A stretch of DNA of 64,000 nt from an uncultured Clostridia bacterium (lineage in GTDB: Bacteria > Acidobacteriota > Aminicenantia > UBA2199). Both the position numbers and the translations under genes were made by a program. The stretch lies in NCBI GenBank assembly GCA_964502145.1, contig CAZCVI010000010.1, positions 44,068 through 108,067 of the forward strand. Direction: 5' to 3'. Below the pieces are notes generated by a model. The model was not told where the DNA came from. It ran no database searches and was given only the letters and a program-made list of their open reading frames with translations. Positions 12,142 through 52,331 of this stretch are shown here, in pieces (positions within the stretch are counted from its first letter, which is position 1; the number at the start of each line of letters is the position of its first letter).

Positions 12142-12169
12142 AAACCTATGAGAACAAATCGAAGGCTGA

Positions 12170-14951: not shown

Positions 14952-14980
14952 GCTAGTGTCGGATATCGGGTTAGGTGGCC

Positions 14981-15604: not shown

Positions 15605-15616
15605 AAGTTTTTGGGA

Positions 15617-15657: not shown

Positions 15658-15663
15658 GCATAG

Positions 15664-16871: not shown

Positions 16872-16883
16872 ACTAAAAATAAA

Positions 16884-17531: not shown

Positions 17532-17538
17532 ATTGCCA

Positions 17539-27705: not shown

Positions 27706-27723
27706 ATTATTCCCAGCACTCCA

Positions 27724-38108: not shown

Positions 38109-38117
38109 TTTGCCTCT

Positions 38118-39098: not shown

Positions 39099-39112
39099 GG
39101 TTTTTTATTTTT

Positions 39113-39472
39113 CTATTCTATTTCTGTGGATATGGATGGGTCTTCAATAAACTTGACCAAGAAATCTATACCCGCGGTATTAAAAAGGGTCTCATCGATG
39201 ATTTTCTCTTTAAATACGGGTTGGTTCTCAATGAATAGACCGGCGTTACTGTCCAGATCAGTGATCCATATGGCTGTCTGGGTATAGCGGATACTGAAGT
39301 GAAAGGGCTCCAAGCGGTCATCGGGTAAATAGATATCTGCATAGTGGCTGGAGCCAACAACGGTTTTACCGGCAAATAGCCGGTAATCTCTGCCTTTCCA
39401 TGGTCCGTTCAATACTAACAGCCACCCTATTAATTCGCGCTCATCTTCCAATACGGTTTTATCGTTATTCAT
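39113..39472 (-). CDS. FHA-domain protein
   Basis: 119 aa. 'GRDYRLFAGKTVVGSSHYADIYLPDDRLEPFHFSI...ITDLDSNAGLFIENQPV'. Stop is TAG. Confidence 0.7.
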   Translation of the reverse strand: MNNDKTVLEDERELIGWLLVLNGPWKGRDYRLFAGKTVVGSSHYADIYLPDDRLEPFHFSIRYTQTAIWITDLDSNAGLFIENQPVFKEKIIDETLFNTAGIDFLVKFIEDPSISTEIE

Positions 39473-39475
39473 GGG

Positions 39476-40057
39476 TTATAGGAATCTCCTCACTTTTTTA
39501 AATATCATCTCTTGATGTCCGATACGAATCCGGTCGCCATCGTCCAGGGGTTCGGTGACAATAATTTTTTCCTTTAACCAGGTGTGGTTGGTGGAGCCGA
39601 GGTCAGTCAGAGTGAAGGTATTGTTTTCGGCTTGGTAATGAATGATGGCGTGGAGTTTGGAGGCAAAGTCATCATTCACCTGGATGTCGGCATCAATACC
39701 TTTCCCGATAATGTTTTTCTCGCGGGTGATACGCACATCATGCAGGGGATGTCCCTCTTTATCAAGAAAAACAAGCCATGCAAAGAAAAGTTTCATACCT
39801 GGGAAATCTTCCATATTATCATCCAGAAACGTTTTGTCCGGATCGCTTTCCAGAACAGTTTTATCCGGGAACATGGTCAGGCTTTCCAGCACGGTTTTGT
39901 TTTCAGGTTCAGAAGGGATGGCATTTAATATTTCGGTGCTGAATCTTTCAACGGGTTTTAGGGGATCGGGTAAAATGGGGCTGCCGCAGAAAGGGCATGA
40001 TGCATTGGGGACATAATATCCAGAAATCTCTTTAGAACAATTTAAACATATATCCAT
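39476..40057 (-). CDS. zinc-ribbon + FHA-domain protein
   Basis: 'CLNCSKEISGYYVPNASCPFCGS' zinc ribbon. C-terminal FHA 'NIIGKGIDADIQVNDDFASKLHAII...LTDLGSTNHTWLKEK'. ATG 40057 with GGAG RBS preferred over GTG 40072. Confidence 0.65.
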   Translation of the reverse strand: MDICLNCSKEISGYYVPNASCPFCGSPILPDPLKPVERFSTEILNAIPSEPENKTVLESLTMFPDKTVLESDPDKTFLDDNMEDFPGMKLFFAWLVFLDKEGHPLHDVRITREKNIIGKGIDADIQVNDDFASKLHAIIHYQAENNTFTLTDLGSTNHTWLKEKIIVTEPLDDGDRIRIGHQEMIFKKVRRFL

Positions 40058-40181
40058 ATCACACTCCGACACTAGCGAAACATCGTTTTATGAAATTCAC
40101 TGCTTTTGTCTCTATACTTAGCTTCTTCATGTACAGAACTTTACCACCCTGTAAAAAAAATGTCAAGTTTTTTCCGATTTT

Positions 40182-41945
40182 TTATTTACTTCTCTCCCGT
40201 AGCGTATCAATGATGTCTTCAATAAAACTTCTCAGGGTTTTGTTGTTGGAGGTCATCAACAGTGTATATTTTGGGCCGCCCCGGGTTTTGATGATGAGGG
40301 CGGGGTTTTTCCGGTTCTTCTTTTTTTTGAAGATACGGACAAAATCGGCGGTCACATCTTGGGAAACCTGTTTGATCTGTGACATGGGTATAGAAAAAGA
40401 GTTTTTGTTGGTGGATTCTTTAAATGGGGCAAAGGAGAGGGTGCCATGGGTGATGCGCAGGATGCCATTGAAAATTTGCGCGCCCTGGTTTTGGTATTGG
40501 ATGCTAAAGTGGATGGACGGGTCGGCTTCCAGTGCTTTGAAGTAGTATGATCGCGCGTTCTTTTTTTCGCCATCGTAAAAATAGGCTTTGCCAATGGCCA
40601 GAAGAATTTCCCCGGATTGGACACCGTTTTTTACAGCATAACGACCGGCAGCCACGGCTTTTTTATATTCTTCATTTGTGATCAACCGCTCCATTCTGCG
40701 CAGGATATCGGCGGCGGTTCCGGGTACGGAAAGCTGGGTGGCAGGGGTGGTTTTGGCAGGTTCTTGAACGGGCGTGTTGGAAGGGGTGTTGCCACCGGGA
40801 GTGGGCGGTGGAGAGGAAGGGGTGGGAGTTTGGGGGGCGGGTTGGAGGGTATTGGGTATCTGGGCGGTGGGAGAGTGGCTGGAGATGGAGGGGGATGGAT
40901 TGTTAGCGGTGGTATGAGCCGTTTTGATGACCGGGGTAGAGCGGGTGTAGAACAGGAGGAAGAGGAGGAGGACGATTAACACTCCGGCCATAGCCAAAAT
41001 AGCGATGCGATGTTGCTTGCTGGGTAGGCGATTAAATTTGAATGTGGGGGTGAATTTTTTAGCCGTGGGTTTAGGTCCAGGGGCGGGGGTTGGGCTTTTT
41101 CCAGGTACAGGAGTCAGGGAAAAAATGGTTTCTTGGATAGCGGCCTCGAATTCGGCAATGTTTTGGAAGCGTTCCGCAGGGTCTTTGGCGATGCTTTTTA
41201 GAATCAAAGCTTCAACGGGGGCAGAGATGGCGGGATTAACCTGGGAAGGCTGACGGGGCACGGCATCAAGAGTTTGTTTGATGACATCGTAACTGGATTT
41301 GCCGGTGATAGTAAAGGGAAGAACGCCGGTAAGCATTTCATAGAGAGTAATACCGAGGGAATAAATATCGGTACGAATATCTGTTTTTTTCCCCAGTAAT
41401 TGTTCGGGTGAAGAATATACGGGGGAACCCAGAGCAGTTCCTACCTTGGTCAGTCCCTCGATACCCTTGACCTTGGCAATACCGAAATCGCAGATTTTGG
41501 CGGTTTGATTTTTGCTTAAAAAGAGATTGGAGGGTTTGATGTCGCGGTGCATAACGCCATTGGCATGGGCATACCCGATACCGCTCAATATTTGCAAGAA
41601 AATCTTTAATCCCTGAACGATGGGCATGGGGCCTTTTTCTTTGATGGATTCTTTCAGGTTTTGCCCTTCGACATATTCCATCACGATGTAATACGCATTT
41701 TTATCCTGGTCAAAGGAGTGGATGGTGACGATATGGCCGTGGTTGAGTTTGGCCTGGGCAATGGCTTCGACGCGGAACCGAGCCATTAATTCTTGACTAC
41801 GGGCGAGTTCGGGTGAAATGATCTTTATCGCTACTTCACGTTCCAGTGACAGGTCACGGGCCAGGAACACAGAACCCATTCCGCCTTCGCCGATCTTTTT
41901 CAAAATACGATAATTGCCTAAGATGGATCCGATTATTTGGTTCAT
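40182..41945 (-). CDS. Hanks-type Ser/Thr protein kinase with TM helix, Pro-rich linker and extracytoplasmic C-terminal domain
   Basis: 'IGEGGMGSVFLARD...VAIK', 'HRDIKPSNLF', 'DFGIAKV'. TM 'IAILAMAGVLIVLLLFLLFY'. Pro/Thr-rich linker, then a ~200-aa C-terminal domain. Confidence 0.85.
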   Translation of the reverse strand: MNQIIGSILGNYRILKKIGEGGMGSVFLARDLSLEREVAIKIISPELARSQELMARFRVEAIAQAKLNHGHIVTIHSFDQDKNAYYIVMEYVEGQNLKESIKEKGPMPIVQGLKIFLQILSGIGYAHANGVMHRDIKPSNLFLSKNQTAKICDFGIAKVKGIEGLTKVGTALGSPVYSSPEQLLGKKTDIRTDIYSLGITLYEMLTGVLPFTITGKSSYDVIKQTLDAVPRQPSQVNPAISAPVEALILKSIAKDPAERFQNIAEFEAAIQETIFSLTPVPGKSPTPAPGPKPTAKKFTPTFKFNRLPSKQHRIAILAMAGVLIVLLLFLLFYTRSTPVIKTAHTTANNPSPSISSHSPTAQIPNTLQPAPQTPTPSSPPPTPGGNTPSNTPVQEPAKTTPATQLSVPGTAADILRRMERLITNEEYKKAVAAGRYAVKNGVQSGEILLAIGKAYFYDGEKKNARSYYFKALEADPSIHFSIQYQNQGAQIFNGILRITHGTLSFAPFKESTNKNSFSIPMSQIKQVSQDVTADFVRIFKKKKNRKNPALIIKTRGGPKYTLLMTSNNKTLRSFIEDIIDTLRERSK

Positions 41946-42133
41946 CTATTTACTTTACCACTGCTTGATTTGAAAGTCAAGCACTGAAGACCGCCTTTAA
42001 GAAAGAGTTAAAGAGATTTTAAAAGGCACGGTGTTTAAAATTCCAGCACTTGATTGGAAAAAGAATTTAGGGTAAACTATAATCTGGTTGCGATCAAAAA
42101 CAATTTTAATGGATTCGTCCGAGGAGTAAAGAA

Positions 42134-43165
42134 ATGAATGAACAGCAAAATGAACAGCAAAATGTGCAAATAAAGATGGATGCAGGAGTGGTTGTTCATC
42201 TGTGGAATCATTGTCATCATTGCCACGCGGAACCTATTATAGGACGCAGATATGAATGTCAGAGCTGTCCGTCGGGACCGGATATTGATCTGTGCGAACC
42301 CTGTTATGAATTGTGGGGCAGGGGTGAGGTTGAACATCCTGCCAAAGATAGTGTTGCGTCTGATTTAACTATTACAGAGCATCGGTTCGAGATGTTTGAG
42401 GGGAAACCTTTGGCGTCATTTCAGGACTGGTTGCTGGTAAAACATCCAGTGGCCGCAGACCCGATTGTGCCGAAACAGGCGGTGTTAAGACCGATTTTTT
42501 CTGCGGGAGTGGATTCAGTGATTGGGAGCTATGCCTTTGTAGCACGTTTGGAAGGAGCGAAGCGACCGCTGATTTTAACGGCATTGCATGTGATGGATGA
42601 ATTGATCAAGAAGTTGGGGATAGATTGTTCACTGGGGCGTGAAGATGATAAAATTAGAAATTATACAGGGAAAGAGTTACCTGCGGTGGTGACGGAAGTG
42701 AACCTGTTTGATGTGTTTGCAGCCAATTGGATGATGGCTCCGATAGGCAATGGGGGCCCGATGCTGGTGTTACCAGATGCGGCGACTGGCGCGGAAGAAC
42801 CCTATTCCAATCGAGATATTGCAGCCTTTTGGGTACATTCGGCGGATGCGGGACATTTTAATCCGTTACCATTGGCCCAATCGGCACCACGGGTAGGTGA
42901 GCCAGTCTGGTTGGCGGCACGTCGGATGGACAATTCAGGAAAACGAACGCTCAAAGCGGTGGTAGTTGAATGTACGGAACGTTCATTGGTATTTAAGTAC
43001 GAAGGGGATGGCGAGAAACCAAAGTACACGAGTGGTGCTCCTATTTTGAACGGGAAGGGCGAAGTGGTGGGGATCAATGTGGGCGGCGGTCGATTAAACG
43101 AGGAAAACCTGGGACATGCGAACCATATAGAGAATATCCGCAGGCACCTGAGTAATGCGAGTTAA
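42134..43165 (+). CDS. ZZ-type zinc finger fused to a trypsin-like (S1) serine protease domain
   Basis: 'HCHHCHAEPIIGRRYECQSCPSGPDIDLCEPCY...HP' fits the ZZ pattern C-x2-C...G.RY.C..C..D.DLC..C...H. Protease: His 'LTALHV', Asp, Ser 'YTSGAPIL...GINVGG'. GAGGAG RBS. Confidence 0.55.
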   Translation: MNEQQNEQQNVQIKMDAGVVVHLWNHCHHCHAEPIIGRRYECQSCPSGPDIDLCEPCYELWGRGEVEHPAKDSVASDLTITEHRFEMFEGKPLASFQDWLLVKHPVAADPIVPKQAVLRPIFSAGVDSVIGSYAFVARLEGAKRPLILTALHVMDELIKKLGIDCSLGREDDKIRNYTGKELPAVVTEVNLFDVFAANWMMAPIGNGGPMLVLPDAATGAEEPYSNRDIAAFWVHSADAGHFNPLPLAQSAPRVGEPVWLAARRMDNSGKRTLKAVVVECTERSLVFKYEGDGEKPKYTSGAPILNGKGEVVGINVGGGRLNEENLGHANHIENIRRHLSNAS

Positions 43166-43491
43166 TCGGTTTTTGTTAGTAAATGGGAACCATAATGCCG
43201 TTTGAAGCGGGTGGAGGAGTATTTTTCCAGTTTCCATTGGGGGATTTTGCAAACTGGGCAGACTTTGTTGAACCATTTATTGCGAAGCCAGCGGGCGGAA
43301 CGGCTGTTGCGAGAATTGTTGATGAGAAATGTTTTGTTGCAATGGGTGGTGATGCGGGCTTGTTCCCCGATTTTTTCAACGGTTTTGATGCCATGTAAAA
43401 TGCCTTGACGGGAAGGCCATAGTTTGATCGTGTCGATCAATTTGAATAATTCAATACGTTTGCGGTAGTACCGCCTGGGTTGTTCGGTCAT
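43162..43491 (-). CDS. pylSn: pyrrolysyl-tRNA synthetase N-terminal tRNA-binding domain protein
   Basis: 'LWPSRQGILHGIK...INNSRNSRSARWLRNKWFNKVCPVCK' parallels the PylS N-terminal 'LWMSRTGTLHKIK...[26 protein letters not shown]'. Last gene of the pyl operon. Confidence 0.7.
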   Translation of the reverse strand: MTEQPRRYYRKRIELFKLIDTIKLWPSRQGILHGIKTVEKIGEQARITTHCNKTFLINNSRNSRSARWLRNKWFNKVCPVCKIPQWKLEKYSSTRFKRHYGSHLLTKTD

Positions 43492-43530
43492 GGTAGTGGC
43501 TCATTTTTAATTGATTTATATAGTGCAAAA

Positions 43531-43583
43531 GTGGACTAACTGGACGATATGGACTGAGTGGACAATGTGGACGAGAGGTGGAT
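43531..43583. repeat. tandem 9-bp array NTGGACNNN x5-6 in the pylD-pylSn intergenic region
   Basis: gTGGACtaa cTGGACgat aTGGACtga gTGGACaat gTGGACgag aggTGGAT, read directly. Confidence 0.85.
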
Positions 43584-43653
43584 TTTTGGAAAAGTTTTTG
43601 GGCTGACAGAGGCACTGTGAAGATGGGTTTAAGATAATGCGATCTAATGTTTT

Positions 43654-44538
43654 TCATTGCTGATTTTTGCGAAAATAATGGACGGCGGCGTCAACGGCCA
43701 TAACGGCGGTGCCGATTTGCAGGGGATCGTGCAAGAGACGGAGTTTTATCTGTTGGATGGCAGCACTGGTTAATCCCAAAGGCACACCGGGCGCGGCGAT
43801 ATAGGTGTGTGGATTGATGTCTGATTTTTGGATGGTATTGGCGGCATTGGTGGCTTCAATGATGAACGAGTGACGCGATAACGCGGGAGCCAAAGCAGGT
43901 TCAATAGAGATGCGGGATGAGCTGCCGGTTATCCTCATAATTTCCATGGCTGCGGCAGAACTGCGTTGTTGGTGGATATCAAACAAAGATACTCGCGCCC
44001 CGCGTTTGATAGCTTCGATGGCAGAATACGTCCCGACTGCTCCACAGCCAATGATTAACAGCTCCCTGTCTTTTAAGCCCACTTTGGGCGTTGGAGCTTG
44101 ATGGCGGATCATCAATTCCAATCCAGCTACAAAACCACGGGCAGTAGATGGGGTATTGTCCACAACGCGACTGTTGCGGGTGTCCAGCGCAATAAAACGT
44201 TTGTCATCGGCCATCATCACAATGGCGGCGCCAGCTTCCACTGCCTCGGCTAGACCCGCAACATCGGGCTCACGGGTAACAAAAGATTTAAATCCAATGT
44301 GCTGCACAATAGCAGCCACAGTGCTGGAAAAACCTCCAATCACACCCTGACCAGACATGATTGGAACAACCGCGATAAGAGTGGATGGAATACAGACTTG
44401 AAGCTGCTGGCTGGTGATGCCCAAGGCATAACAGGCAATCCCTTGCAAGGTCGTGCCTGTTTGCAATTGCAAAAGAGTGTCGTAGAGAAGGAGCTGGGCA
44501 GTTAAGTCTTTGATGTCGTTTACGGTCAGACGAGTCAT
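43654..44538 (-). CDS. pylD: pyrrolysine biosynthesis dehydrogenase
   Basis: 'IAVVPIMSGQGVIGGFSSTVAAIVQHIGFKSFVT', 'AAIVMMADD', 'FIIEATNAANTI', 'APGVPLGL' parallel Methanosarcina PylD blocks. AGGAAA RBS. Confidence 0.85.
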   Translation of the reverse strand: MTRLTVNDIKDLTAQLLLYDTLLQLQTGTTLQGIACYALGITSQQLQVCIPSTLIAVVPIMSGQGVIGGFSSTVAAIVQHIGFKSFVTREPDVAGLAEAVEAGAAIVMMADDKRFIALDTRNSRVVDNTPSTARGFVAGLELMIRHQAPTPKVGLKDRELLIIGCGAVGTYSAIEAIKRGARVSLFDIHQQRSSAAAMEIMRITGSSSRISIEPALAPALSRHSFIIEATNAANTIQKSDINPHTYIAAPGVPLGLTSAAIQQIKLRLLHDPLQIGTAVMAVDAAVHYFRKNQQ

Positions 44539-44545
44539 GTTTTTC

Positions 44546-45685
44546 CTAGCGGATAATGCTTTGCCTTATATTTTGAATAACGCGGTCGCTTTTTTGCTGG
44601 GCCGACTGGAGGTCTGTGGCTTCAATGATCAAGGTAGCCACCCATGAATAGGCACTGGGGCTATAATTGGTGATGGCTTCATCGGCACCAAAAAAGTCGT
44701 GGCACAGAAACAACGGGCCAACCTCTGACATAATATGCTCACCACTAATTCGTATCCCACGGGGGGAAACTTCAATGTGCTGGTAAATCGCACCCCGTTT
44801 TTGGTCAGCAGCTTTTATAACTTTTTGACTGGTAAAACATTGGGCCAATAACGGCATCATGTTCCACCCGGAAGATTGGAAAACAGCGGTGGGAGTCTGA
44901 CTGGGGAAACGGGCGTCAATCTCCAATACTTTTAATTGGTTATCATGAAGAATAATTTCAACATCCATGATCCCCCGCAACTGGATGGATTGTGCAATGT
45001 GCAAGGAAATCTTCTCGAACTGCTTTACCTGGGTAGGAGATAATAACGTGGGGGCCGATACTCGTTTACAATCATAACTGTCATCCATGTCAAGGTCAGT
45101 GACTTGCAAGGGAATATAATTCCCGGGAGTGCCCATCACTTCAAGAGAATAGGACGGCCCTTCGACGTATTCCTGAATGACCCAGCCGGGAGGCGGCAGG
45201 GAGGCGGAAAAGGAGGAAAAGAACTCTTCCAGTTGCGGTCTATCATTAAAAAGCCGAACGCCACGACTACCACTACTGCTCTCAGGTTTGGCGATAACTG
45301 GGAATGAACAATTTGGCCAGGGTTTGGGGGCAGGCACGCCAAGTTCTGCAAAAAGATGGTCGGAACGGAGCTTGGAAGAAGAAATAGCATAAGTCGCTGC
45401 ATCAAAGGCAAAAGGAATGGCAGAGGTGAGACTCCACTGGTGTAATGCAGCGAGTGCGGCGGCATTCTCAGTGGCGGGGACAACAAGGTCTATATCTTTG
45501 ATATCTCTTATGCAAGATTGCCATTTCGACTGGTCCGTGACATCCAGCTCAATGAAACGATGGCACATTTGGGCAGCGGCCACATGGGGGTGTTTGTCGA
45601 TTAAAAGGGTTTCCCATCCGGCATGATGGGCCAAATAAGCGACTTCTACGCCTTGAAGACTGCCGCCGACGATAAGGATTTTCAT
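44546..45685 (-). CDS. pylC: 3-methylornithine--L-lysine ligase (ATP-grasp)
   Basis: 'KILIVGGSLQGVEVAYLAHHAG', 'LEIDARFPSQTPT' (identical to the PylC block). AGGAG RBS. Start overlaps the pylB stop (ATGA). Own stop is TAG. Confidence 0.85.
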   Translation of the reverse strand: MKILIVGGSLQGVEVAYLAHHAGWETLLIDKHPHVAAAQMCHRFIELDVTDQSKWQSCIRDIKDIDLVVPATENAAALAALHQWSLTSAIPFAFDAATYAISSSKLRSDHLFAELGVPAPKPWPNCSFPVIAKPESSSGSRGVRLFNDRPQLEEFFSSFSASLPPPGWVIQEYVEGPSYSLEVMGTPGNYIPLQVTDLDMDDSYDCKRVSAPTLLSPTQVKQFEKISLHIAQSIQLRGIMDVEIILHDNQLKVLEIDARFPSQTPTAVFQSSGWNMMPLLAQCFTSQKVIKAADQKRGAIYQHIEVSPRGIRISGEHIMSEVGPLFLCHDFFGADEAITNYSPSAYSWVATLIIEATDLQSAQQKSDRVIQNIRQSIIR

Positions 45686-46770
45686 GATTTAAGCTCCTGG
45701 TTTTTTAAAACGCGGTTCTTTATCCAATCTTGGTATTGCTGGTGGGAAGCGATTTGTAAACCGCACTCTGTCAATATGGTTAACACGTTATCGGTGGTTC
45801 TGCGGGCATCATCAATATCCAGTGAGGATTGCGCTACTCCAGCCAGTCCCTGTTGGGGTGGCACGATGGAAGTCACAACATTGGCACCTGCATCCATACG
45901 CCGCTTCAAGCCAGCCAGCCCTTCGACATCCAATGTGGCGGGAATGAGTCGATCAGGGAACAAAATACGCATGAGCGCGATAAGAATTAATTCGGTCAAA
46001 GGTTCTGGAAAAGGGAAATGGGCCATCGGTGTGCCCTGTTGCGGCACAAAATTCATGGCCCGCACTTGGTCAGCGTTACTGGCCCGCATCTCGGTTAGTG
46101 AATGGGCGATATCATGGGAAGTTTCGCCCACGCCCACGAGGATGCCTTCTTCGGTTAACATCCCCAGTTGATGGGCTTGGTGTTTGCTATTTAAACGGGT
46201 CAAATAATCCTGGCCGGGTCTAAGCTGTTGGAAAAGAGTTGGGTTGTGAGTCTCCTGGTAACAAGCAAACCAGGAAGCACCGGCAACGGCAAACTGGGCC
46301 AATATAGGGGGGGGGACTACGCCGGGGGAGATCATAATGGGAAGAAAAACGGCGGTTTTTATAGCTTGCACCAAGCGGATCAAGGAGTGGAAACCATGCT
46401 CACCTGAAGGGTCTTCGCCCATGGTCAGATCAATCAGATGAACACCAGAACGTGCCAGTTGAATGGCGGCTTCAATGATTTCGGTTTCTGCTTTCCTGTA
46501 CCTGAAACGCGGCGAAAGGGTATTCTGGGCACGGTAAAAACAAAAATTACAATTGTTGCGACAATAGGTGCTAATATAAAGGAAACCATAGAGAAAAACA
46601 TGGTTCCCGAAATACTGCTGACGGATAGAACGGGCAGTGCTAAAAAGGGCTTCCAATAGCTGGGGTTGGCGAAGTTGCAGGATAGTGGTGATTTCCTTCT
46701 GGGTGAGGGCGTGCTGGTGGGAGGCTTTTGCCAGTATGGTGTCCAATATAGGCGGGGGAGTGAAATGCAC
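45682..46770 (-). CDS. pylB: 3-methylornithine synthase (radical SAM lysine mutase)
   Basis: 'YFGNHVFLYGFLYISTYCRNNCNFCFYRAQN', 'LIDLTMGEDP', 'LPIMISPG', 'YQETH', 'GANVVTSIVPP' parallel PylB. GTG start with GAGG RBS. Confidence 0.85.
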   Translation of the reverse strand: MHFTPPPILDTILAKASHQHALTQKEITTILQLRQPQLLEALFSTARSIRQQYFGNHVFLYGFLYISTYCRNNCNFCFYRAQNTLSPRFRYRKAETEIIEAAIQLARSGVHLIDLTMGEDPSGEHGFHSLIRLVQAIKTAVFLPIMISPGVVPPPILAQFAVAGASWFACYQETHNPTLFQQLRPGQDYLTRLNSKHQAHQLGMLTEEGILVGVGETSHDIAHSLTEMRASNADQVRAMNFVPQQGTPMAHFPFPEPLTELILIALMRILFPDRLIPATLDVEGLAGLKRRMDAGANVVTSIVPPQQGLAGVAQSSLDIDDARRTTDNVLTILTECGLQIASHQQYQDWIKNRVLKNQELKS

Positions 46771-46779
46771 TGGTGCGCC

Positions 46780-47622
46780 TCAAATGTTTAACCGAATACC
46801 GTTGAGATAGGCGAGACTGCGACCCATTTTACCAAGGTTGTGGCTGTTCTGAGTGACCATCAGCAAACGTTCCAGCCCGAATCCGATGCCCACCCATGGT
46901 TCGACAATGCGCCAGGCCCGGTCCAACGGATGGGGACCGATGGCAGCCGAACCCACCTCTATTTTATCTTTTCCGGCGACCACGTCGATGGTCTCACCAT
47001 AGACGTTAGAGGTTTCGGTTTCCAGAGTATAATCGGTTAATCCGGCGGTGCGGGTCACCAGGGCGGCGAGTTCTTCCAGTCGTGCTTGCCGGTTTTCTAA
47101 AGGTAATCCCATTTCCACGAGATTGAGCATGGTAAATTCACTGGAATGTAACGAACCCTGGGACTCCTTGCGAAAACAAGAACCGACTTCAAAGATAGAC
47201 ACGGGTTTCTCCCATAAACGCAATAAATCCTTTAATACATAATATAAATGAGGGGCCAGCATGGGACGGAGACATTTGTCCTTGTCCAACCAATATACCT
47301 GGGAGAAGAGGGGATGGGTTTCGTCGATGGTCATTTTGGCCAATAGCCCGCGAGACATGATGGTGGGGGTAATGACCTGCACAAAACCGGCGGCGGTAAG
47401 GGTTTCTATCAATTGGCTTTCTAAGCGGCACAGGGCGGGCCTGTGCTCATGTTCCCGGAAATAAGTTAATTGGGTTCTGGCTTGTTTGATATAATGATTT
47501 TCTAATTTATGAAAAGAGTTGTCCCGGTCTGCTGGGCTGGTGAATGCTTGTGATAGTTCCTGGGGGGGGACTTCTAGTTCGATCAATCTTCGATGTTGGA
47601 CTTCAGACCAAGTGAGTGTCAT
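46780..47622 (-). CDS. pylSc: pyrrolysyl-tRNA synthetase catalytic domain (bacterial split form)
   Basis: 'PTIMSRGLLAKMTIDETHPLFSQVYWLDKDKCLRPMLAPHLYYVL...IFEVGSCFRKESQGSLHSSEFTMLN' is near-identical in pattern to Desulfitobacterium PylSc. 280 aa. Confidence 0.9.
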   Translation of the reverse strand: MTLTWSEVQHRRLIELEVPPQELSQAFTSPADRDNSFHKLENHYIKQARTQLTYFREHEHRPALCRLESQLIETLTAAGFVQVITPTIMSRGLLAKMTIDETHPLFSQVYWLDKDKCLRPMLAPHLYYVLKDLLRLWEKPVSIFEVGSCFRKESQGSLHSSEFTMLNLVEMGLPLENRQARLEELAALVTRTAGLTDYTLETETSNVYGETIDVVAGKDKIEVGSAAIGPHPLDRAWRIVEPWVGIGFGLERLLMVTQNSHNLGKMGRSLAYLNGIRLNI

Positions 47623-47624
47623 GG

Positions 47625-47700
47625 ATTGCCTGGGGAATTATGGGAATGGGAGTTATGGGAATTATGGGAAGAATGGGGGTTATGGGAAAAGAGGGGTAGT
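47625..47700. repeat. tandem 9-bp array (TTATGGGAA-like units x ~7) in the pylSc 5' leader
   Basis: gaattatgg gaatgggag ttatgggaa ttatgggaa gaatggggg ttatgggaa, read directly. Confidence 0.8.
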
Positions 47701-47773
47701 GGTGTGTGAGCCAGCGGTTTGGGTAATCTGTTTAAATTGCTTGCCATATTATACCTACTCAAACTAATAAACG

Positions 47774-47844
47774 GCGAGGAGTTCGGGAGTTGCACCCGAC
47801 TATATGGATTTAGAATCCATACGATCCACTTACGATCCACTCCC
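47774..47844 (-). tRNA. pylT: tRNA-Pyl (anticodon CUA, amber suppressor)
   Basis: Minus-strand sequence GGGGAGT-G-GATC-GTAAGTG-GATC-G-TATGGA-TTCTAAA-TCCATA-TAG-TCGGG-TGCAACT-CCCGA-ACTCCTC-G(CC). 6-bp anticodon stem, CUA anticodon, 3-nt variable loop, one nt between acceptor and D stems, G73 discriminator. Immediately upstream of pylSc. Confidence 0.8.
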
Positions 47845-47858
47845 CATTCGCCGAAATA

Positions 47859-47887
47859 TATCTTAAAATAATATTCCTTAATTGTCA
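47859..47887 (-). promoter_or_regulatory. sigma70-like promoter for pylT (-35 TTGACA, 17-bp spacer, -10 TAAGAT)
   Basis: Minus strand TTGACAattaaggaatattatttTAAGAT. The -10 ends 14 nt before tRNA position 1. Confidence 0.45.
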
Positions 47888-47916
47888 ATTGTTGGGTTCT
47901 TTTTTTTGCCACGGGT

Positions 47917-48618
47917 TTATCGGAGAATACGTTGGCGGCAATTAAATGTCTGGCATGTGTCGCAGAAAGAATAATCATTATCGAAATCATGAATACTGGC
48001 AGGCCCTGCGACCAATACACCGGAAATAGATTTTATAGGCACCATTAAAAAACTGGGATTGAGTTGGATACCAATCGCCTCGGGTTGGAGATACTGGAAT
48101 AATTTTCCCTGGCCACTGATGTGCCAACCGCAGTAACCAGGACTGTAAAGCAATACTTTTAGTCCTGCTCTGGGTTCAGGCAAGCGGTTTAAAAAGAGTG
48201 TCTCTGTACAAAGGGCTGCTTTATCGGCACCATAAGAGGCGATGGTGTCCAACATATACCCCAACGCAAATCCATTGGCCTGGGTTTTCATGAGTTGATC
48301 GATTTTGGCACTCACGGCGGGTCCGAGGGTGCAGGCAAACAAACCCAATTGATGGGCACGGGGGAAAATATGTTCCAACGGTGTATCCTTTTCATTCTGG
48401 CCGAGACCGGGATATATCAGGCTGAATTGGGTGCTGGAAAGATCAGCTATCAAACCGATGGGAGCAGCCAATTGCATAAACAACTCTGCTGCGGACCGAT
48501 AGAGAGCCTTGACCCGTTCTGGGGGTTGGGTGCCACGGGGTATCCCTTGCATGAAGAAAATTTCCTCTTCATCGGGGGCTATAACTTCAATAGATAGATT
48601 AAATGTTTCTTTATTCAT
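47917..48618 (-). CDS. MetH activation-domain-like protein (Met_synt_B12-like), tentative
   Basis: 'LLYSPGYCGWHISGQGKLFQYL...LNPSFLMVPIKSISGVLVAGP' resembles the SPGY...W...P.KS.SG core of the methionine-synthase reactivation domain. Start overlaps the stop of the MttB-like gene. Confidence 0.4.
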   Translation of the reverse strand: MNKETFNLSIEVIAPDEEEIFFMQGIPRGTQPPERVKALYRSAAELFMQLAAPIGLIADLSSTQFSLIYPGLGQNEKDTPLEHIFPRAHQLGLFACTLGPAVSAKIDQLMKTQANGFALGYMLDTIASYGADKAALCTETLFLNRLPEPRAGLKVLLYSPGYCGWHISGQGKLFQYLQPEAIGIQLNPSFLMVPIKSISGVLVAGPASIHDFDNDYSFCDTCQTFNCRQRILR

Positions 48619-50099
48619 TAGTATCCGGTGACATCAGGAAGTGTGCTGATACCGTGGCGGTGGGCTTCGGCTTTCATGATTTGGATTAATTGCTCTTTGA
48701 TAGCGGGATTGAGGGAAGATGGCTGATAGGATTCGAGCAGGTTTAACATCTCCTTGTGCGCCCGTTCGCCCAGGGTCAAACTGCCTTCTTCCTGCCAGCG
48801 GGACTGGTTGGTGCGATCAATGATGGGGCCGGGAAAATAATGTTCGGCTTTAAGAAAACGGCGGGTATGTTTGGATATCAACAGGTGCTGGTCTTTCAAT
48901 AATTCCTGGTACCTGGGCACAATGGGGAAATCCTCCTGGGGATCAATACCATTAAGCATACGAAACACCATGCCGCATATTTCATTGTCAACAATCAATT
49001 TTTCTATACTAAATGTATTGACAAAATCGAGCATCCCGGGGCCGGAAATACTATTGATCCCGGATAAGGCGGCCATAGTGGCACCCATGGCTGTTTCCAA
49101 ACCGGCCTGGGCGTCCAGAAGCTTGGCATCGCTCAACGCGATGTAAGCCTGGGTGGGAATACCGAGGTATTTCCCGATTTCATTGTAACCGCAATCCAGC
49201 ATCTGGGTTTCTATGGCGCCCAGCGGCGTGGTTTCGTAGCGGACATCAAAGGAAGCAGGGGCACCACCATATAATAATGGCGTGCCCGGGTTACTTAATT
49301 GACTGATTACAATACCGCTGAGTGTTTCGGCGGTGTGCCCCACCAATGAACCCACGAGGGTAACTGGAGCGGTGAAACCAGCCAGGGGCATGGAAATCAA
49401 TTCGATGGGAATACCACTTCTGCCGCAATCGACAATGTCCTGGCATATTCTGGCACTCCATTTTAACGGGGTGGTGGAACAGCAGGAAAAAATGGTCAGG
49501 GGTTTTGCTTTTAATGCAGTTTCATTGCCCCGGACAGCCACCTGCATCTCTTTCATTACTTTGAAGCCCTCGGCACTGAAGGTACCGGTAACCACGGGTT
49601 TTTCTCCGAAAAGAAGGTTCAGGTAGAGGCGGTAGCTGTCGGATATTTTTTCACTGACATCGGCGGGAACAAAGGCGGTACTCTGGGCGGCAATATGCTT
49701 TAACTGGGCGGTCACCTTGACAAAACGAATATAGTCGGCGGTATTGGGCTGGCGCGACTGTTGGGTAGTGGAATCCAAGATGTGCAAGGCGGAAGAAGCG
49801 GGGGTAAAATGAATGGTGTAACCGGAAAAATCATGGGTCTCATTGCCTTTGACATCATATAACTTGAAGGTAGGGGGCACACTGTCCAACGCGAGGTCGA
49901 TCATAGCGCCGGTGATAAACACATTGTGGGCATCGGAATGGGGCACGGGTTCGACGGTGGCACCAAAATCGGATAGCATAAGGACTGTCTTTTTATCGTA
50001 AATTTTTATACCGATAGTGCTTAGAATGTCGCGTGCTTCAGATATAATACGTTCGATCAACTCTTTGTTCAAAAATCTTAGATTGGGTCTGACTGCCAT
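48618..50099 (-). CDS. MttB-superfamily (trimethylamine / quaternary-amine : corrinoid) methyltransferase, no in-frame amber codon
   Basis: ~493 aa. N-terminal 'LRFLNKELIERIISEARDILSTIGIKIYDKKTVLMLSDFGATV' and overall length fit PF06253. Continuous ORF with no internal TAG. Start set at ATG 50099 (GGAGAA RBS). The track ORF starts at TTG 50141. Confidence 0.65.
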   Translation of the reverse strand: MAVRPNLRFLNKELIERIISEARDILSTIGIKIYDKKTVLMLSDFGATVEPVPHSDAHNVFITGAMIDLALDSVPPTFKLYDVKGNETHDFSGYTIHFTPASSALHILDSTTQQSRQPNTADYIRFVKVTAQLKHIAAQSTAFVPADVSEKISDSYRLYLNLLFGEKPVVTGTFSAEGFKVMKEMQVAVRGNETALKAKPLTIFSCCSTTPLKWSARICQDIVDCGRSGIPIELISMPLAGFTAPVTLVGSLVGHTAETLSGIVISQLSNPGTPLLYGGAPASFDVRYETTPLGAIETQMLDCGYNEIGKYLGIPTQAYIALSDAKLLDAQAGLETAMGATMAALSGINSISGPGMLDFVNTFSIEKLIVDNEICGMVFRMLNGIDPQEDFPIVPRYQELLKDQHLLISKHTRRFLKAEHYFPGPIIDRTNQSRWQEEGSLTLGERAHKEMLNLLESYQPSSLNPAIKEQLIQIMKAEAHRHGISTLPDVTGY

Positions 50100-50166
50100 A
50101 ACATTGTTCTCCATAGGGTGTGGCCGTTTAATCCGGGCCAATTACGGGGTTTTGGGGGTTGAGATT

Positions 50167-51243
50167 TTATTGTTGTACTTGTTGCCGTTTCCATTGACGA
50201 TAGCGTTTCATATATTCCTCGGCGATGGTGGGGGAGTCCATGCCGAGCTCTTTGGCATAGGTTGAAACACACCATCGCAGGTAGCCTGGTTCGGGTAGGT
50301 CTTCGAATCGTTCTAACTCGATATTGACTAAAATTTTATAGGAGATTTTTGATGTTCTTGCCAGATCATGGATGCCTAAGCCCATTCGTTCGCGATATTT
50401 TTTAAAGGTTCGGCCTTTAATAATAGCGGCTCCTCCTGTCTCATAATTTTCCATGTTCGGGTCTATCAGCGTGTCTTCCATGGGGTTGGTGGCGGAGGGA
50501 TCGATCACTCGTATCATGGTGGAATAGGGTGAGCGGCCATTTTCCAATTCCGGGGGGATATCTTCCGGTTGTGTGGGTTCAGGGAATATGTATTCGGGTA
50601 GTTCTAATGGGTCTTCTGCAATGAAGAGTTCCTGGGTATCTTGGAAATTATTTATTTTTAAGGGTTCCTGTGTGTTCAGCAGTTCCGGTGTTGGGAACGC
50701 CTCTAGTACTTCTTCTGGTTCTGGTTCTCCCAGATCAGGGATTTCTGGAAGTGCAATTTGTTCTGGTAACTCCAGATGCTCGGGGATAGTGGGGGGCATC
50801 CAGGTGTCACTACGTTCCACGATTGCAGAACTCTCAATTTTTTCTTCTATTTTTTCTCCTACTATTTCTTCTGATATTTCTTCTAATATTTCTTCTTCTT
50901 TAAAGAATAGGGGAGCATAGGGATCATTCAGCTCTTCTTCAATATCTTCAAAATCATCGACATCGAAAATTTCTTTGGCTGTTTTTTCTTTTTCGAACTT
51001 CTCTTTTTCAATGCGGTCTTTTTCAACGAGGTAATGAAAAAGTCCAGAATACGCCTCGTGGATGTCGGTCATGATTTTTTGTTTATCTTCTTCGGGGAAT
51101 TCGTCATCTATAGCTTCCATGACGATGGAATCAGTGGAAAAGACTTTTTTCAGGCGTTCATAGGCTGTTTTTATTTCAGCCATCGAGGGATTTTCTTCTA
51201 GCTCAAGGATATTCAAATATTGTTTGTATTTTTTTTCATCCAT
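50167..51243 (-). CDS. acidic (Glu/Asp/Pro-rich) protein with C-terminal RodZ-type helix-turn-helix (HTH_25/XRE-like)
   Basis: C-terminus 'GRTFKKYRERMGLGIHDLARTSKISYKILVNIELERFEDLPEPGYLRWCVSTYAKELGMD'. Start at internal ATG 51243, just after the parA-like stop. Confidence 0.4.
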   Translation of the reverse strand: MDEKKYKQYLNILELEENPSMAEIKTAYERLKKVFSTDSIVMEAIDDEFPEEDKQKIMTDIHEAYSGLFHYLVEKDRIEKEKFEKEKTAKEIFDVDDFEDIEEELNDPYAPLFFKEEEILEEISEEIVGEKIEEKIESSAIVERSDTWMPPTIPEHLELPEQIALPEIPDLGEPEPEEVLEAFPTPELLNTQEPLKINNFQDTQELFIAEDPLELPEYIFPEPTQPEDIPPELENGRSPYSTMIRVIDPSATNPMEDTLIDPNMENYETGGAAIIKGRTFKKYRERMGLGIHDLARTSKISYKILVNIELERFEDLPEPGYLRWCVSTYAKELGMDSPTIAEEYMKRYRQWKRQQVQQ

Positions 51244-52159
51244 TGTCGATATCCGGAATTTTAACCTGTTTGTCTTCGAGCAGATTAAGCACGATCTCAC
51301 GAAGTTCGTTGGAGGTGGAGGCGGGGGAAATGAATTGGGGAGTAGAGCTGGAGTGTTTAACAAACTTCCAGAAAAAATCGGTGTATTGAATGAAACCGCT
51401 CAATCTGGCATCGATTCCGAAATATTTTGTCAGTACACTTTTCACGGCGCTACCTGTTTCCAGGTGCTCGCTGTTTTTGATCTGGTTGACAATAATATAA
51501 ATCTTAAACTCGGCCAATGCTTTTTCAACCAGGGTGCGAATTTCCGGTGAAATTTCCATGATATGCTGGATCAACTCTTTAATGCTGGAGATTTTATTGG
51601 GGAGGCGGTTGTCCCATGCTTTTTTGGCAACATCCTTAAGTCCATGATCGCCCAGCAAGATGTTTAATTTGCGGAACAGCACCTTTTTGATAAAATGATA
51701 GAGATTTTCAATAGAGGTGATTTCTGGCAGGATGACGACGATCATTTTATCGGCCATCAAGAAGGTATCAATCGTATTGTGGCCTGAACCGGCACCGAGA
51801 TCAATGAGCACATAATCGGCGCTGATATTCTTGATATGCCGGTACAACTTTAATTTTTGAGTTTGTTTGAGGCCGATAGTATTGAGGGAACGGACATCGC
51901 CAGTCACAAAGCGCAGGTTGGGAATGGCGGTATCCACGATGATTTCGCTTAAGGGAACTTTTTTTTCAAAGAAGTCGGTCAATGAATATTTGGGTTTTGG
52001 AACCTTGAGAAAGGAGTGCAGGTTGGCACCGCCTAAATCGCCATCAATCAGGGTAACCCGTTTGCCCAGATGGGCCAGATTCAATCCCAGGGAGCTGGTG
52101 ACGAAGCTTTTTCCAGTACCGCCTTTACCGCCGCCAATAGCCCATATTTCGGAATTCAT
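51236..52159 (-). CDS. ParA/MinD-family P-loop ATPase
   Basis: Deviant Walker A 'IGGGKGGTGKSFVTSSLG'. 'LIDGDLGGANL'. AAGAGG RBS. Confidence 0.75.
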   Translation of the reverse strand: MNSEIWAIGGGKGGTGKSFVTSSLGLNLAHLGKRVTLIDGDLGGANLHSFLKVPKPKYSLTDFFEKKVPLSEIIVDTAIPNLRFVTGDVRSLNTIGLKQTQKLKLYRHIKNISADYVLIDLGAGSGHNTIDTFLMADKMIVVILPEITSIENLYHFIKKVLFRKLNILLGDHGLKDVAKKAWDNRLPNKISSIKELIQHIMEISPEIRTLVEKALAEFKIYIIVNQIKNSEHLETGSAVKSVLTKYFGIDARLSGFIQYTDFFWKFVKHSSSTPQFISPASTSNELREIVLNLLEDKQVKIPDIDNG

Positions 52160-52331
52160 TGTTTTCTAACCTCTTTTTAAATCACGCTATGTTGTGTTTT
52201 GTTTGTTTCGTCTGTTTCGTTCGTTTCTTTTTCAAAAAAGTTGTATCTATTTATTTTGACAAAAAACATACAGGATGTCAACCCCTAATGAGATGGATGA
52301 TTGTTATTGTTGGGCAAGGGTGCGCCAGTAT

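What the first reader, a model, noticed from the sequence alone, without database searches (positions are those of the whole stretch)
43162..47887. Complete bacterial-type pyrrolysine (genetic-code expansion) cassette: pylT-pylSc-pylB-pylC-pylD-pylSn
Six co-oriented minus-strand elements are present. In transcription order they are tRNA-Pyl, the PylS catalytic domain, PylB, PylC, PylD and the separate PylS N-terminal domain. This is the split pylSc/pylSn arrangement known from Desulfitobacterium-type bacteria. Each protein carries diagnostic blocks. PylSc has 'KMTIDETHPLFSQVYWLDKDKCLRPMLAP...FEVGSCFRKESQG'. PylB has 'STYCRNNCNFCFY...LTMGEDP'. PylC has 'LEIDARFPSQTPT'. pylB-pylC are ATGA-coupled, and pylD's RBS directly follows the pylC stop. 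The rest of the window has BACON-domain surface proteins, a PDDEXK-AAA ATPase, a Bat-like MoxR operon and a mevalonate-pathway gene. That does not look like the classical Firmicutes or Deltaproteobacteria Pyl hosts. The cassette may therefore mark Pyl use in a lineage where it is not described. The gene products are as established for Pyl systems. The host novelty is inference.
Basis: partly seen in the sequence, partly recalled or inferred. Interest (0 to 1): 0.85.

Follow-up and report, generated by a model that had tools for sequence, protein, structure and literature searches.

The report
Pyrrolysine cassette in an Aminicenantes-like bacterium
The region holds a complete, intact set of genes for making the 22nd amino acid pyrrolysine and inserting it at UAG codons. 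It sits in the chromosome of an uncultured Aminicenantes-like bacterium, which extends a known system to a little-discussed lineage but does not reveal a new mechanism.

Summary
On the minus strand lie pylT (47773-47845, anticodon CUA), pylSc, pylB, pylC, pylD and pylSn. All five proteins score well above NCBIfam equivalog cut-offs. The tRNA has the tRNA-Pyl architecture, backed by compensatory changes across 20 relatives.

The cassette sits in a housekeeping chromosomal region, and independent contigs reproduce both flanks, so it is not chimeric. The host is not Firmicutes or Deltaproteobacteria. An 11-gene block elsewhere in the window is collinear, for ten of its genes at 50-77% identity, with a MAG labelled Candidatus Aminicenantes. 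That MAG carries its own pyl cassette, and PylSc falls in an Aminicenantes-dominated clade.

Reviews list Firmicutes, Deltaproteobacteria, Actinobacteria, Spirochaetes and Chloroflexi. Public MAGs labelled as at least eight other groups already carry, and NCBI already names, such cassettes.

No UAG-interrupted gene occurs in the 64 kb. The adjacent MttB-family gene has Leu (TTG) at the Pyl position, so Pyl use here is inferred, not shown. Two relatives in the same PylSc clade, one of them Aminicenantes-labelled, do have TAG-containing mttB, and one also an mtbB-like gene, beside their cassettes.

Verdict: new member of a known kind, moderate interest.

The parts
47860..47888 (-). Promoter-like site TTGACA-17-TAAGAT directly 5' of pylT
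   Evidence: Consensus scan, 10 of 12 matches. The number of such sites in the region is not above chance, so only its position is suggestive.
47773..47845 (-). pylT, tRNA-Pyl with anticodon CUA
   Evidence: ARAGORN. Folds at -29.4 kcal/mol, z = -3.4. The generic Rfam tRNA model gives 27.4 bits, just under its gathering score of 29. Across 20 relatives 99.3% of cells are paired and 10 of 22 pairs show changes on both sides.
47633..47688 (-). 9-nt tandem repeat (CCCATAAYT, about 6.6 copies) in the 150-nt pylT-pylSc spacer
   Evidence: TRF and pattern search, 3 matches against 0.1 expected. Unstructured as RNA. In most relatives checked the spacer is about 22-75 nt, though a few are longer. Function unknown.
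46780..47622 (-). pylSc, catalytic subunit of pyrrolysyl-tRNA synthetase (280 aa)
   Evidence: TIGR02367, 337.8 bits against a cut-off of 178. Best solved homologue is 3DSQ/2ZNI, pyrrolysyl-tRNA synthetase, E = 1e-96.
45682..46770 (-). pylB, radical-SAM methylornithine synthase (362 aa)
   Evidence: TIGR03910, 458.8 bits against a cut-off of 348. CX3CX2C motif in YCRNNCNFC.
44546..45685 (-). pylC, ATP-grasp 3-methylornithine--lysine ligase (379 aa; stop codon TAG)
   Evidence: TIGR03909, 413.5 bits against a cut-off of 248. ATGA overlap with pylB.
43654..44538 (-). pylD, dehydrogenase of the last step (294 aa)
   Evidence: TIGR03911, 247.2 bits against a cut-off of 150, and Pfam PylD_N.
43162..43491 (-). 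pylSn, separate tRNA-binding N-terminal subunit of PylRS (109 aa)
   Evidence: TIGR03912, 128.1 bits against a cut-off of 51. Matches the PylRS chain 5UD5, E = 7.5e-11; from my own knowledge that entry is the M. mazei N-terminal domain.
47917..48618 (-). Standalone protein resembling the MetH reactivation domain (233 aa), with a C-terminal CX2CX4C motif, directly upstream of pylT
   Evidence: Pfam Met_synt_B12. A profile of 6 homologues hits PDB 1J6R ('methionine synthase'), E = 9e-7. Occupies the same position in L003, L004, L007, L050, L085 and L086.
48618..50141 (-). Non-Pyl member of the MttB methyltransferase superfamily. Leu336 (TTG, 49134-49136) sits at the Pyl position.
   Evidence: Pfam MTTB, 249 bits. 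TIGR02369 gives 337 bits, below its cut-off of 525. The alignment to trimethylamine methyltransferase 7XCL puts L336 on an unknown residue (X), which I take to be pyrrolysine; in the methyltransferase chains 2QNE and 9YCE that column is Leu. Rfam PYLIS_3 hit has UUG where the model has UAG.
50167..51243 (-). Protein with a C-terminal HTH_25 (RodZ-like) helix-turn-helix domain
   Evidence: Pfam HTH_25. Start re-set to the ATG at 51243 by comparison with L085 and L086.
51236..52159 (-). ParA/MinD-like P-loop ATPase (307 aa), first gene of the conserved module
   Evidence: Pfam AAA_31, ParA and CbiA. Occupies the same position in L085, L086, L003 and L094-L097.

Best explanation
This is an intact bacterial-type pyrrolysine module in the chromosome of an uncultured Aminicenantes-like bacterium.

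Mechanism, from established knowledge of the Pyl pathway (inferred here by homology, not tested):
- PylB, a radical-SAM enzyme, converts lysine to 3-methylornithine.
- PylC, an ATP-grasp ligase, joins it to the epsilon-amine of a second lysine.
- PylD oxidises the product, which cyclises to pyrrolysine.
- PylSc, helped by the separate tRNA-binding PylSn, charges tRNA-Pyl(CUA).
- The charged tRNA reads selected UAG codons.

Local arrangement, as the sequence shows: pylT has its own promoter-like site. The five protein genes are tightly packed, with an ATGA overlap and an RBS over a stop codon. They follow, on the same strand, a four-gene block: parA-like, HTH_25, non-Pyl MttB-family methyltransferase and MetH-reactivation-like protein.

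Evolution: the cassette appears vertically inherited within its lineage.

Targets: the UAG-containing genes, most likely mttB, mtbB or mtmB, must lie elsewhere in the genome. TAG remains an ordinary stop codon for most genes.
For: Shown:
- All five proteins pass equivalog cut-offs by wide margins.
- PylSc and PylSn match solved PylRS domains.
- The tRNA keeps the tRNA-Pyl architecture: 1 nt between the acceptor and D stems, a 6-bp anticodon stem, a 3-nt variable loop, and G1:C72 with discriminator G. Across 20 loci 99.3% of cells are paired and 10 pairs covary.
- The gene junctions are compact.

Not chimeric, and chromosomal:
- GC is 0.489 against a window range of 0.42-0.52.
- L089 reproduces pylSn, ZZ-trypsin, pheS, pheT (PheS 80%, PheT 71%).
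- L003 and L097 reproduce DUF255, parA, HTH, mttB-like, MetH-act, pylT, pylSc.
- An independent Logan contig spans pylSc through to the kinase/FHA genes.

Host:
- Window 7987-19473 holds 11 genes. Ten of them are collinear at 50-77% identity with JAPKZK010000019.1. That record shares its WGS accession prefix with the Candidatus Aminicenantes MAG whose cassette is L051.
- Pyl proteins are 52-76% identical to that cassette, a range like that of the housekeeping genes.
- PylSc groups with cassettes of Aminicenantes-labelled MAGs.

Use in this PylSc clade: L004 (labelled Aminicenantes) and L007 (labelled only 'uncultured bacterium') have mttB with TAG at the Pyl column. L007 also has an ORF with an in-frame TAG that resembles mtbB; that identification rests on my own recall of MtbB, not on a family search.
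Against: - No UAG-interrupted gene exists in the 64-kb window. The only two-part reading frame is the unrelated MoxR/DUF58 pair.
- The neighbouring MttB-family gene is a non-Pyl type.
- 7 of about 50 ORFs in the window, including pylC, end in TAG. Read-through would have to be limited or regulated.
- The best named PheT relatives are Clostridia at about 52%, so the Aminicenantes assignment rests on synteny with labelled MAGs rather than on a phylogenomic tree.
- Nothing here shows expression or Pyl incorporation.
Confidence: 0.8

Rival explanations
1. Orphan or decaying cassette. The lineage once used Pyl but has replaced or lost its UAG-containing methyltransferases, as the neighbouring MttB homologue with Leu at the Pyl site might suggest. 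The pyl genes would then be a leftover no longer used for decoding.
For: There is no Pyl target in 64 kb. The adjacent MttB-family gene carries TTG where the Rfam PYLIS_3 model has UAG. In the closest module-sharing relatives (L003, L085, L086, L094, L096, L097) the neighbour is likewise a non-Pyl type and no TAG-mttB was seen in the flanks held.
Against: All five ORFs are full length and score far above equivalog cut-offs, and the tRNA is intact. Pyl proteins diverge between relatives at about the same rate as housekeeping proteins (52-82% against 50-80%), which indicates purifying selection. The non-Pyl MttB clade is only about 27% identical to the TAG-type mttB genes, so it is not a recent Pyl-to-Leu convert.
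Confidence: 0.12
2. Recently transferred island or assembly/binning artefact. The pyl genes would belong to another organism, for example a Desulfobacterales bacterium, and were joined to this contig at the repeat between pylT and pylSc.
For: Short-read Logan contigs break inside the 9-nt repeat upstream of pylSc. Pyl cassettes are known to move horizontally.
Against: The same order MetH-act, pylT, pylSc is found in nine independent contigs. Both flanks recur in relatives (L089 downstream; L003 and L097 upstream). GC is unremarkable. PylSc is nearest to Aminicenantes-type sequences, not Desulfobacterales.
Confidence: 0.04
3. Functionally coupled module. The non-Pyl MttB homologue and the MetH-reactivation-like protein would work together with Pyl-dependent enzymes in one methylated-amine pathway, and that coupling would explain why pylT sits directly behind them.
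For: The nine-gene order is conserved in L085, L086 and L097, and as far as the contig reaches in L003, L094 and L096. The MetH-act-like gene also precedes pylT in L004 and L007, which have TAG-mttB.
Against: Among 51 metagenomic loci carrying this MttB clade with at least 1.5 kb downstream, only 5 have pylSc, and all 5 are the closest relatives at 68% identity or more. Elsewhere the pair is followed by other genes; in L115 these are a corrinoid protein and a homocysteine S-methyltransferase. The linkage therefore looks like shared ancestry, not a rule.
Confidence: 0.15

Closest known systems
Desulfitobacterium hafniense pylT-pylSc-pylB-pylC-pylD-pylSn cassette (solved PylSc structures 3DSQ, 2ZNI)
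   Same: PylRS is split into PylSc and PylSn, and all six parts are present. Chains 3DSQ and 2ZNI are the best solved matches, E = 1e-96 over the full length. That these entries are D. hafniense PylSc, that its gene order is the same, and that G1:C72, G73 and the GAUC D stem are its tRNA identity features come from my own knowledge of the D. hafniense literature, not from a tool result.
   Different: The host phylum differs (Firmicutes against Aminicenantes-like). In the held relatives PylSc is nearer to the Aminicenantes and Desulfobacterota types (57-77% across the kept loci). A 150-nt repeat-filled pylT-pylSc spacer is present here. The neighbours are a non-Pyl MttB and a MetH-reactivation-like gene.
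pyl cassettes of MAGs labelled Candidatus Aminicenantes (L003 CS4-C025, L004 MFD03804.bin.1.187, L005, L008, L051 LacPavin MAG_46_26)
   Same: They fall in the same PylSc clade, at 66-73% PylSc identity. L003, L004, L005 and L051 have pylT directly upstream of pylSc. The MetH-act-like gene lies upstream in L003 and L004. L003 shares the whole upstream module plus DUF255. The L051 MAG shares a collinear housekeeping block of ten genes.
   Different: They are different species, with protein identities of 45-82%. L004 has a TAG-containing mttB 3 kb beyond pylSn, which the window lacks. The spacer repeat is specific to the window.
Desulfobacterales and Olavius delta-1 symbiont pyl clusters
   Same: Same six components and the split PylS. 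PylSc identity is 59-67%.
   Different: These clusters usually have TAG-containing mttB next to the cassette; 27 related loci have it in all. They form separate PylSc clades.
Methanosarcina pylTSBCD
   Same: Same biosynthetic enzymes and the same tRNA/synthetase logic. PylSc matches PDB chains named pyrrolysyl-tRNA synthetase or pyrrolysine--tRNA ligase (for example 2Q7E, E = 1.5e-49), which from my own knowledge are the M. mazei catalytic domain.
   Different: In Methanosarcina PylS is a single fused protein. TAG is rare as a stop codon in those archaea, whereas TAG ends about 14% of the ORFs here.

Membership tests
Bacterial-type pyrrolysine cassette (pylTScBCDSn) | tRNA with anticodon CUA and the tRNA-Pyl architecture: 1 nt between acceptor and D stems, 6-bp anticodon stem, 3-nt variable loop, no G18G19 and no T-psi-C | tested here: met
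   The T loop is UGCAACU and the D loop is GUAAGUG. The generic tRNA model scores just below its gathering score, as expected for this atypical tRNA.
Bacterial-type pyrrolysine cassette (pylTScBCDSn) | Class II PylRS catalytic subunit (PylSc) | tested here: met
   TIGR02367, 337.8 bits against 178. 3DSQ at E = 1e-96. The pocket residues that I recall for M. mazei (R330, N346, Y384, W417) have counterparts in CFRKES, MLNL, VYGET and PWVG. That mapping is by eye and from my own knowledge.
Bacterial-type pyrrolysine cassette (pylTScBCDSn) | Separately encoded PylSn | tested here: met
   TIGR03912, 128.1 bits against 51, as a 109-aa ORF of its own located 162 nt after pylD.
Bacterial-type pyrrolysine cassette (pylTScBCDSn) | PylB, PylC and PylD all present and adjacent | tested here: met
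   TIGR03910, TIGR03909 and TIGR03911 are all above cut-off. The three genes are contiguous and co-oriented.
Bacterial-type pyrrolysine cassette (pylTScBCDSn) | Genome encodes at least one gene with an in-frame UAG at a conserved Pyl position (mtmB, mtbB, mttB or other) | tested here: not met
   None within the 64-kb window. The rest of the genome is not available, so at genome level this is untested. Two loci of the same PylSc clade, L004 (Aminicenantes-labelled) and L007, do have such genes.
Bacterial-type pyrrolysine cassette (pylTScBCDSn) | Pyl is synthesised and inserted at UAG in vivo | not testable with these tools
   Needs proteomics or heterologous expression.
Pyl-dependent trimethylamine methyltransferase MttB (for the neighbour 48618-50141) | In-frame TAG at the active-site Pyl position, and an equivalog-level score | tested here: not met
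   The codon is TTG (Leu336). TIGR02369 gives 337 bits, below its cut-off of 525.
Non-Pyl MttB superfamily (MtgB-like quaternary-amine methyltransferases) | MTTB fold without Pyl; the substrate is defined biochemically | tested here: inconclusive
   Pfam MTTB at 249 bits. Leu at the Pyl column, as in chains 2QNE and 9YCE (9YCE is named glycine betaine methyltransferase). The match to that protein is only 181 bits, and the substrate is unknown.
Candidatus Aminicenantota (host assignment) | Placement by concatenated marker phylogeny or 16S | not testable with these tools
   Indirect evidence only. Ten genes are collinear at 50-77% identity with a contig of the assembly that holds the Aminicenantes-labelled L051. 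L003 shares the module. A lineage-restricted PriA-like protein has an Aminicenantes protein among its few named hits, at 51%. PheT named hits point only weakly elsewhere.

The most novel reading that the evidence does not exclude
In this Aminicenantes-like lineage the Pyl machinery may not serve the canonical methylamine methyltransferases. It may have been recruited behind a non-Pyl MttB and MetH-reactivation unit. In other bacteria that unit is followed by a corrinoid protein and a homocysteine methyltransferase. Pyl, or UAG read-through, could then act in a new set of proteins or in a methylated-amine-to-methionine pathway. The window-specific CCCATAAYT repeat could act as a regulatory element for pylS expression.
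Probability: 0.08. Interest if true: 0.65.

Novelty: new member of a known kind. Interest (0 to 1): 0.35.

Why it matters
Surveys in the literature I could read list bacterial PylRS in Firmicutes, Deltaproteobacteria, Actinobacteria and Spirochaetes (PMC9630628), with Chloroflexi added by PMC5424206.

This locus and its relatives show that a vertically inherited, chromosomally anchored Pyl cassette also exists in an Aminicenantes-type lineage common in anoxic sediments. Similar cassettes lie in MAGs labelled as several further phyla.

That widens the set of bacteria that may compete with methanogens for methylamines. It also offers further natural split PylRS/tRNA-Pyl pairs for genetic-code-expansion work.

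It does not change the understanding of how the system works.

Tried and rejected
1. Pyl-encoding genes in the window. I read all frames with TAG as sense and looked for two-part ORFs. The only candidate, 26746-28902, is the ordinary MoxR and DUF58 gene pair.

2. The neighbouring MttB as a Pyl enzyme. Rejected: the codon is TTG (Leu) and the score is below the equivalog cut-off.

3. The TAG stop of pylC as a special autoregulatory feature. Rejected as ordinary: TAG ends 8 of 57 pylC genes, 39 of 60 pylB genes and 21 of 83 pylSc genes in the fetched loci.

4. An obligatory link between the non-Pyl MttB clade and pyl. Rejected: only 5 of 51 metagenomic loci carry pylSc.

5. Naming the organism directly. 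Exact-sequence look-ups found the proteins in NCBI, JGI, ENA and Logan on contigs of up to 135,313 bp, but without names. No paper mentions the Logan run accessions SRR7760391, SRR7760392 or SRR7760394. The genome is not a GTDB species representative, since the best PylSc match there is 73%.

6. PheT as a taxonomic marker. The only named hits were Clostridia at about 52%. I judged this uninformative next to the synteny evidence.

7. RNA structure in the pylT-pylSc spacer. None found, z = +1.28.

8. Not found by Pfam or NCBIfam.

Full report
**Observation.**
- ARAGORN finds a tRNA-Pyl with anticodon CUA at 47773-47845.
- The ORFs 46780-47622, 45682-46770, 44546-45685, 43654-44538 and 43162-43491 match the NCBIfam equivalog models as follows: PylS_Cterm 337.8 bits (cut-off 178), PylB 458.8 (348), PylC 413.5 (248), PylD 247.2 (150) and PylS_Nterm 128.1 (51).
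- pylB and pylC overlap as ATGA. The pylC stop TAG overlaps an AGGA 5 nt before the pylD start.
- PylSc is most similar among solved structures to 3DSQ/2ZNI (E = 1e-96; D. hafniense PylSc, from my own knowledge). PylSn matches the PylRS chain 5UD5.

**The tRNA.**
- It folds into a cloverleaf at -29.4 kcal/mol, z = -3.4.
- It has one nucleotide between the acceptor and D stems, a GAUC/GAUC D stem, a 6-bp anticodon stem, a 3-nt variable loop and a UGCAACU T loop without T-psi-C.
- It has G1:C72 and discriminator G.
- The generic Rfam tRNA model scores 27.4 bits, just under its gathering score of 29. This is typical of an atypical tRNA.
- pylT genes lie directly upstream of pylSc in 19 of 20 related loci.
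- On their alignment the proposed structure pairs 99.3% of cells. Ten of 22 pairs change on both sides. Slid controls pair only 35-59% of cells.
- CCA is not fully encoded: the sequence after the acceptor stem reads GCCG.

**Context, and whether the contig is chimeric.** The window is a chromosomal stretch full of housekeeping genes: nadB, nadC, pheS, pheT, gmk, coaC, coaB, a PriA-like gene, a YicC-family gene, comEC, a MoxR operon, and Ser/Thr kinases with FHA proteins.
- GC of the pyl region is 0.489, inside the window's range of 0.42-0.52.
- Downstream flank: a 281-kb JGI contig (L089) has pylScBCDSn, then a convergent ZZ-trypsin gene, then pheS-pheT, as in the window. PheS is 80%, PheT 71% and PylSc 68% identical.
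- Upstream flank: L003 and L097 have DUF255, parA-like, HTH_25, MttB-like, MetH-activation-like, pylT, pylSc and pylB, as in the window.
- An independent Logan assembly spans pylSc to the kinase/FHA genes.
- I conclude the contig is not chimeric, although short-read contigs do break inside a repeat just upstream of pylSc.

**Host.**
- The exact genome is not among the GTDB species representatives. Its proteins are in NCBI, JGI and ENA without names.
- The best named PheT hits are Clostridia at only about 52%.
- The decisive evidence is synteny. Window 7987-19473 holds 11 genes: aminotransferase, 2-hydroxyacid dehydrogenase, MeTr-like pterin-binding protein, CDP-alcohol phosphatidyltransferase, ABC exporter, YicC-family protein, Gmk, CoaC, CoaB, UDG and an atypical PriA. 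Ten of them (all but the 2-hydroxyacid dehydrogenase) are collinear, at 50-77% identity, with JAPKZK010000019.1.
- That contig shares its WGS accession prefix with JAPKZK010000067.1, 'Candidatus Aminicenantes bacterium LacPavin_0920_SED2_MAG_46_26', whose own pyl cassette is L051.
- The Pyl proteins of the window are 52-76% identical to those of L051. This is the same range as the housekeeping genes.
- In a neighbour-joining tree PylSc sits in a clade made of Aminicenantes-labelled MAGs (L003, L004, L005, L008, L051) plus L006, L007, L050, L085, L086 and L089. The clade is separate from the Desulfobacterales and Gemmatimonadota clades.
- Together this indicates an Aminicenantes-like host (NCBI candidate phylum Aminicenantota; GTDB class Aminicenantia, from my own knowledge) and vertical inheritance of the cassette.

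**Extended module.** Upstream on the same strand are four genes:
- a ParA/MinD-like ATPase (51236-52159);
- an HTH_25 protein (50167-51243);
- an MttB-family methyltransferase (48618-50141);
- a 233-aa protein overlapping its stop codon (47917-48618).

The last protein has a weak Pfam Met_synt_B12 match. A profile of six homologues matches the PDB chain 1J6R, named 'methionine synthase' (E = 9e-7). From my own knowledge this is the standalone Thermotoga MetH-reactivation-like protein. The window's protein carries an extra conserved CX2CX4C motif.

The MttB homologue is not a Pyl enzyme:
- It has no in-frame TAG.
- It scores 337 bits against the cut-off of 525 for TIGR02369.
- Leu336 (TTG) aligns with the unknown residue (X) in the trimethylamine methyltransferase chain 7XCL, which I take to be pyrrolysine. 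It aligns with a Leu in chains 2QNE and 9YCE; 9YCE is named glycine betaine methyltransferase.
- The Rfam PYLIS_3 hit at 49037-49136 (42.6 bits, gathering score 38) begins with UUG where the model has UAG.

The nine-gene order recurs in L085 (an NCBI MAG), L086 (ENA) and L097, and as far as the contig reaches in L003, L094 and L096. The link is lineage-specific, however. Of 51 metagenomic loci carrying this MttB clade (59% identity or more) with at least 1.5 kb downstream, only the five closest have pylSc. In L115 the MttB-like and MetH-act-like pair is followed by a corrinoid protein and a homocysteine S-methyltransferase. That looks like a split methionine synthase fed by a methylated amine.

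**Is Pyl used?**
- No gene in the window carries an internal TAG. The only two-part frame is MoxR/DUF58.
- TAG ends 7 of about 50 ORFs, including pylC. This resembles the frequent TAG stops reported for Pyl-encoding bacteria (PMC9723677).
- TAG stops are also common inside pyl cassettes generally.
- In 27 related loci an mttB with a stop at the Pyl column lies near the cassette, and all 27 stops are TAG.
- These include the Aminicenantes-labelled L004 and also L007. L007 additionally has an mtbB-like ORF of 355 aa, TAG, then 115 aa. I call it mtbB-like from my recollection that MtbB carries Pyl near residue 356; it was not scanned against a family library.
- Hence the most likely role is the canonical one, with targets elsewhere in the genome. 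This step is inference.

**Comparison with what is known.** The locus meets every testable defining feature of the bacterial split-PylS cassette except the presence of a UAG target within the window.
- Guo et al. 2022 found bacterial PylRS in Firmicutes, Deltaproteobacteria, Actinobacteria and Spirochaetes (PMC9630628).
- Mukai et al. 2017 added Chloroflexi (PMC5424206).
- I found no paper linking Pyl to Aminicenantes.
- The databases are ahead of the literature. There are 3,187 protein clusters at E <= 1e-10 to PylSc.
- The GTDB scan found 222 stretches encoding PylSc relatives. The 80 loci kept carry labels including Aminicenantes, Deferrimicrobium, Gemmatimonadota, Omnitrophota, Planctomycetaceae, Myxococcota, Acidimicrobiia, Spirochaetaceae and Gammaproteobacteria.
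- NCBI already names the Aminicenantes proteins 'pyrrolysine--tRNA(Pyl) ligase large subunit'.

**Verdict.** The host is indeed non-classical, but similar cassettes in that lineage are already public and auto-annotated, though undiscussed. It is a new member of a known kind. The mechanism is inferred by strong homology. Pyl usage by this organism is likely but unproven. Interest is moderate to low, 0.35.

Noticed in passing
window 47633-47688 (within the 47623-47772 spacer): A G-poor 9-nt tandem repeat (CCCATAAYT on the transcribed strand, about 6.6 copies) expands the pylT-pylSc spacer to 150 nt. In most relatives checked the spacer is about 22-75 nt. It is unstructured as RNA. Short-read Logan contigs end inside it.
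   Followed up: partly
L115 6013-10983 (metagenome contig Ga0315294_10000061), and 29 of 62 related loci: The non-Pyl MttB clade is usually followed by the MetH-reactivation-like gene. In L115 it is followed further by a corrinoid protein and a homocysteine S-methyltransferase. This looks like a split, methylated-amine-fed methionine synthase.
   Followed up: partly
window 17533-19473: This PriA-like protein matches only the PriA 3'-DNA-binding domain in Pfam, with no helicase domains. It belongs to a small family (about 46 clusters at 40% identity or more). The few named members include 'bacterium' MAGs at 51-55%, a Candidatus Aminicenantes MAG at 51% and an Ignavibacteriales MAG at 48%. Ordinary PriA proteins match at only 23-25%.
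   Followed up: partly
window 15664-16215 and 16212-16871: CoaC and CoaB are separate ORFs overlapping by 4 nt, rather than the usual fused CoaBC. They are also called as separate genes in L090 and L092.
   Followed up: no
L007 16082-17497 and 17509-19014; L004 17575-19095: Two loci of the same PylSc clade, L004 (Aminicenantes-labelled) and L007 (labelled 'uncultured bacterium'), carry mttB with an in-frame TAG beside the pyl cassette. L007 also carries an mtbB-like gene with an in-frame TAG.
   Followed up: yes
loci L003-L092 (pyl genes): TAG is the stop codon of 39 of 60 pylB genes and 21 of 83 pylSc genes in the fetched bacterial cassettes. This is odd for genes whose products promote UAG read-through.
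   Followed up: partly
window 10223-11035: A methyltetrahydrofolate:corrinoid methyltransferase-like (pterin-binding) gene lies 37 kb from the cassette. It is conserved in the syntenic Aminicenantes block. It is a possible methyl acceptor step for corrinoid-dependent methylotrophy.
   Followed up: no
window 51867-52169 (+): A 100-aa ORF on the plus strand is spurious. It lies antisense to the conserved ParA-like gene at 51236-52159 (-).
   Followed up: yes
window 35169-43165: Next to pylSn lies a dense signalling block: two Ser/Thr kinases, a PP2C phosphatase, three FHA-domain proteins (one fused to a trypsin-like protease) and a ZZ-zinc-finger trypsin-like protein. The relative L089 lacks the kinase/FHA block but keeps the ZZ-trypsin gene.
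   Followed up: no
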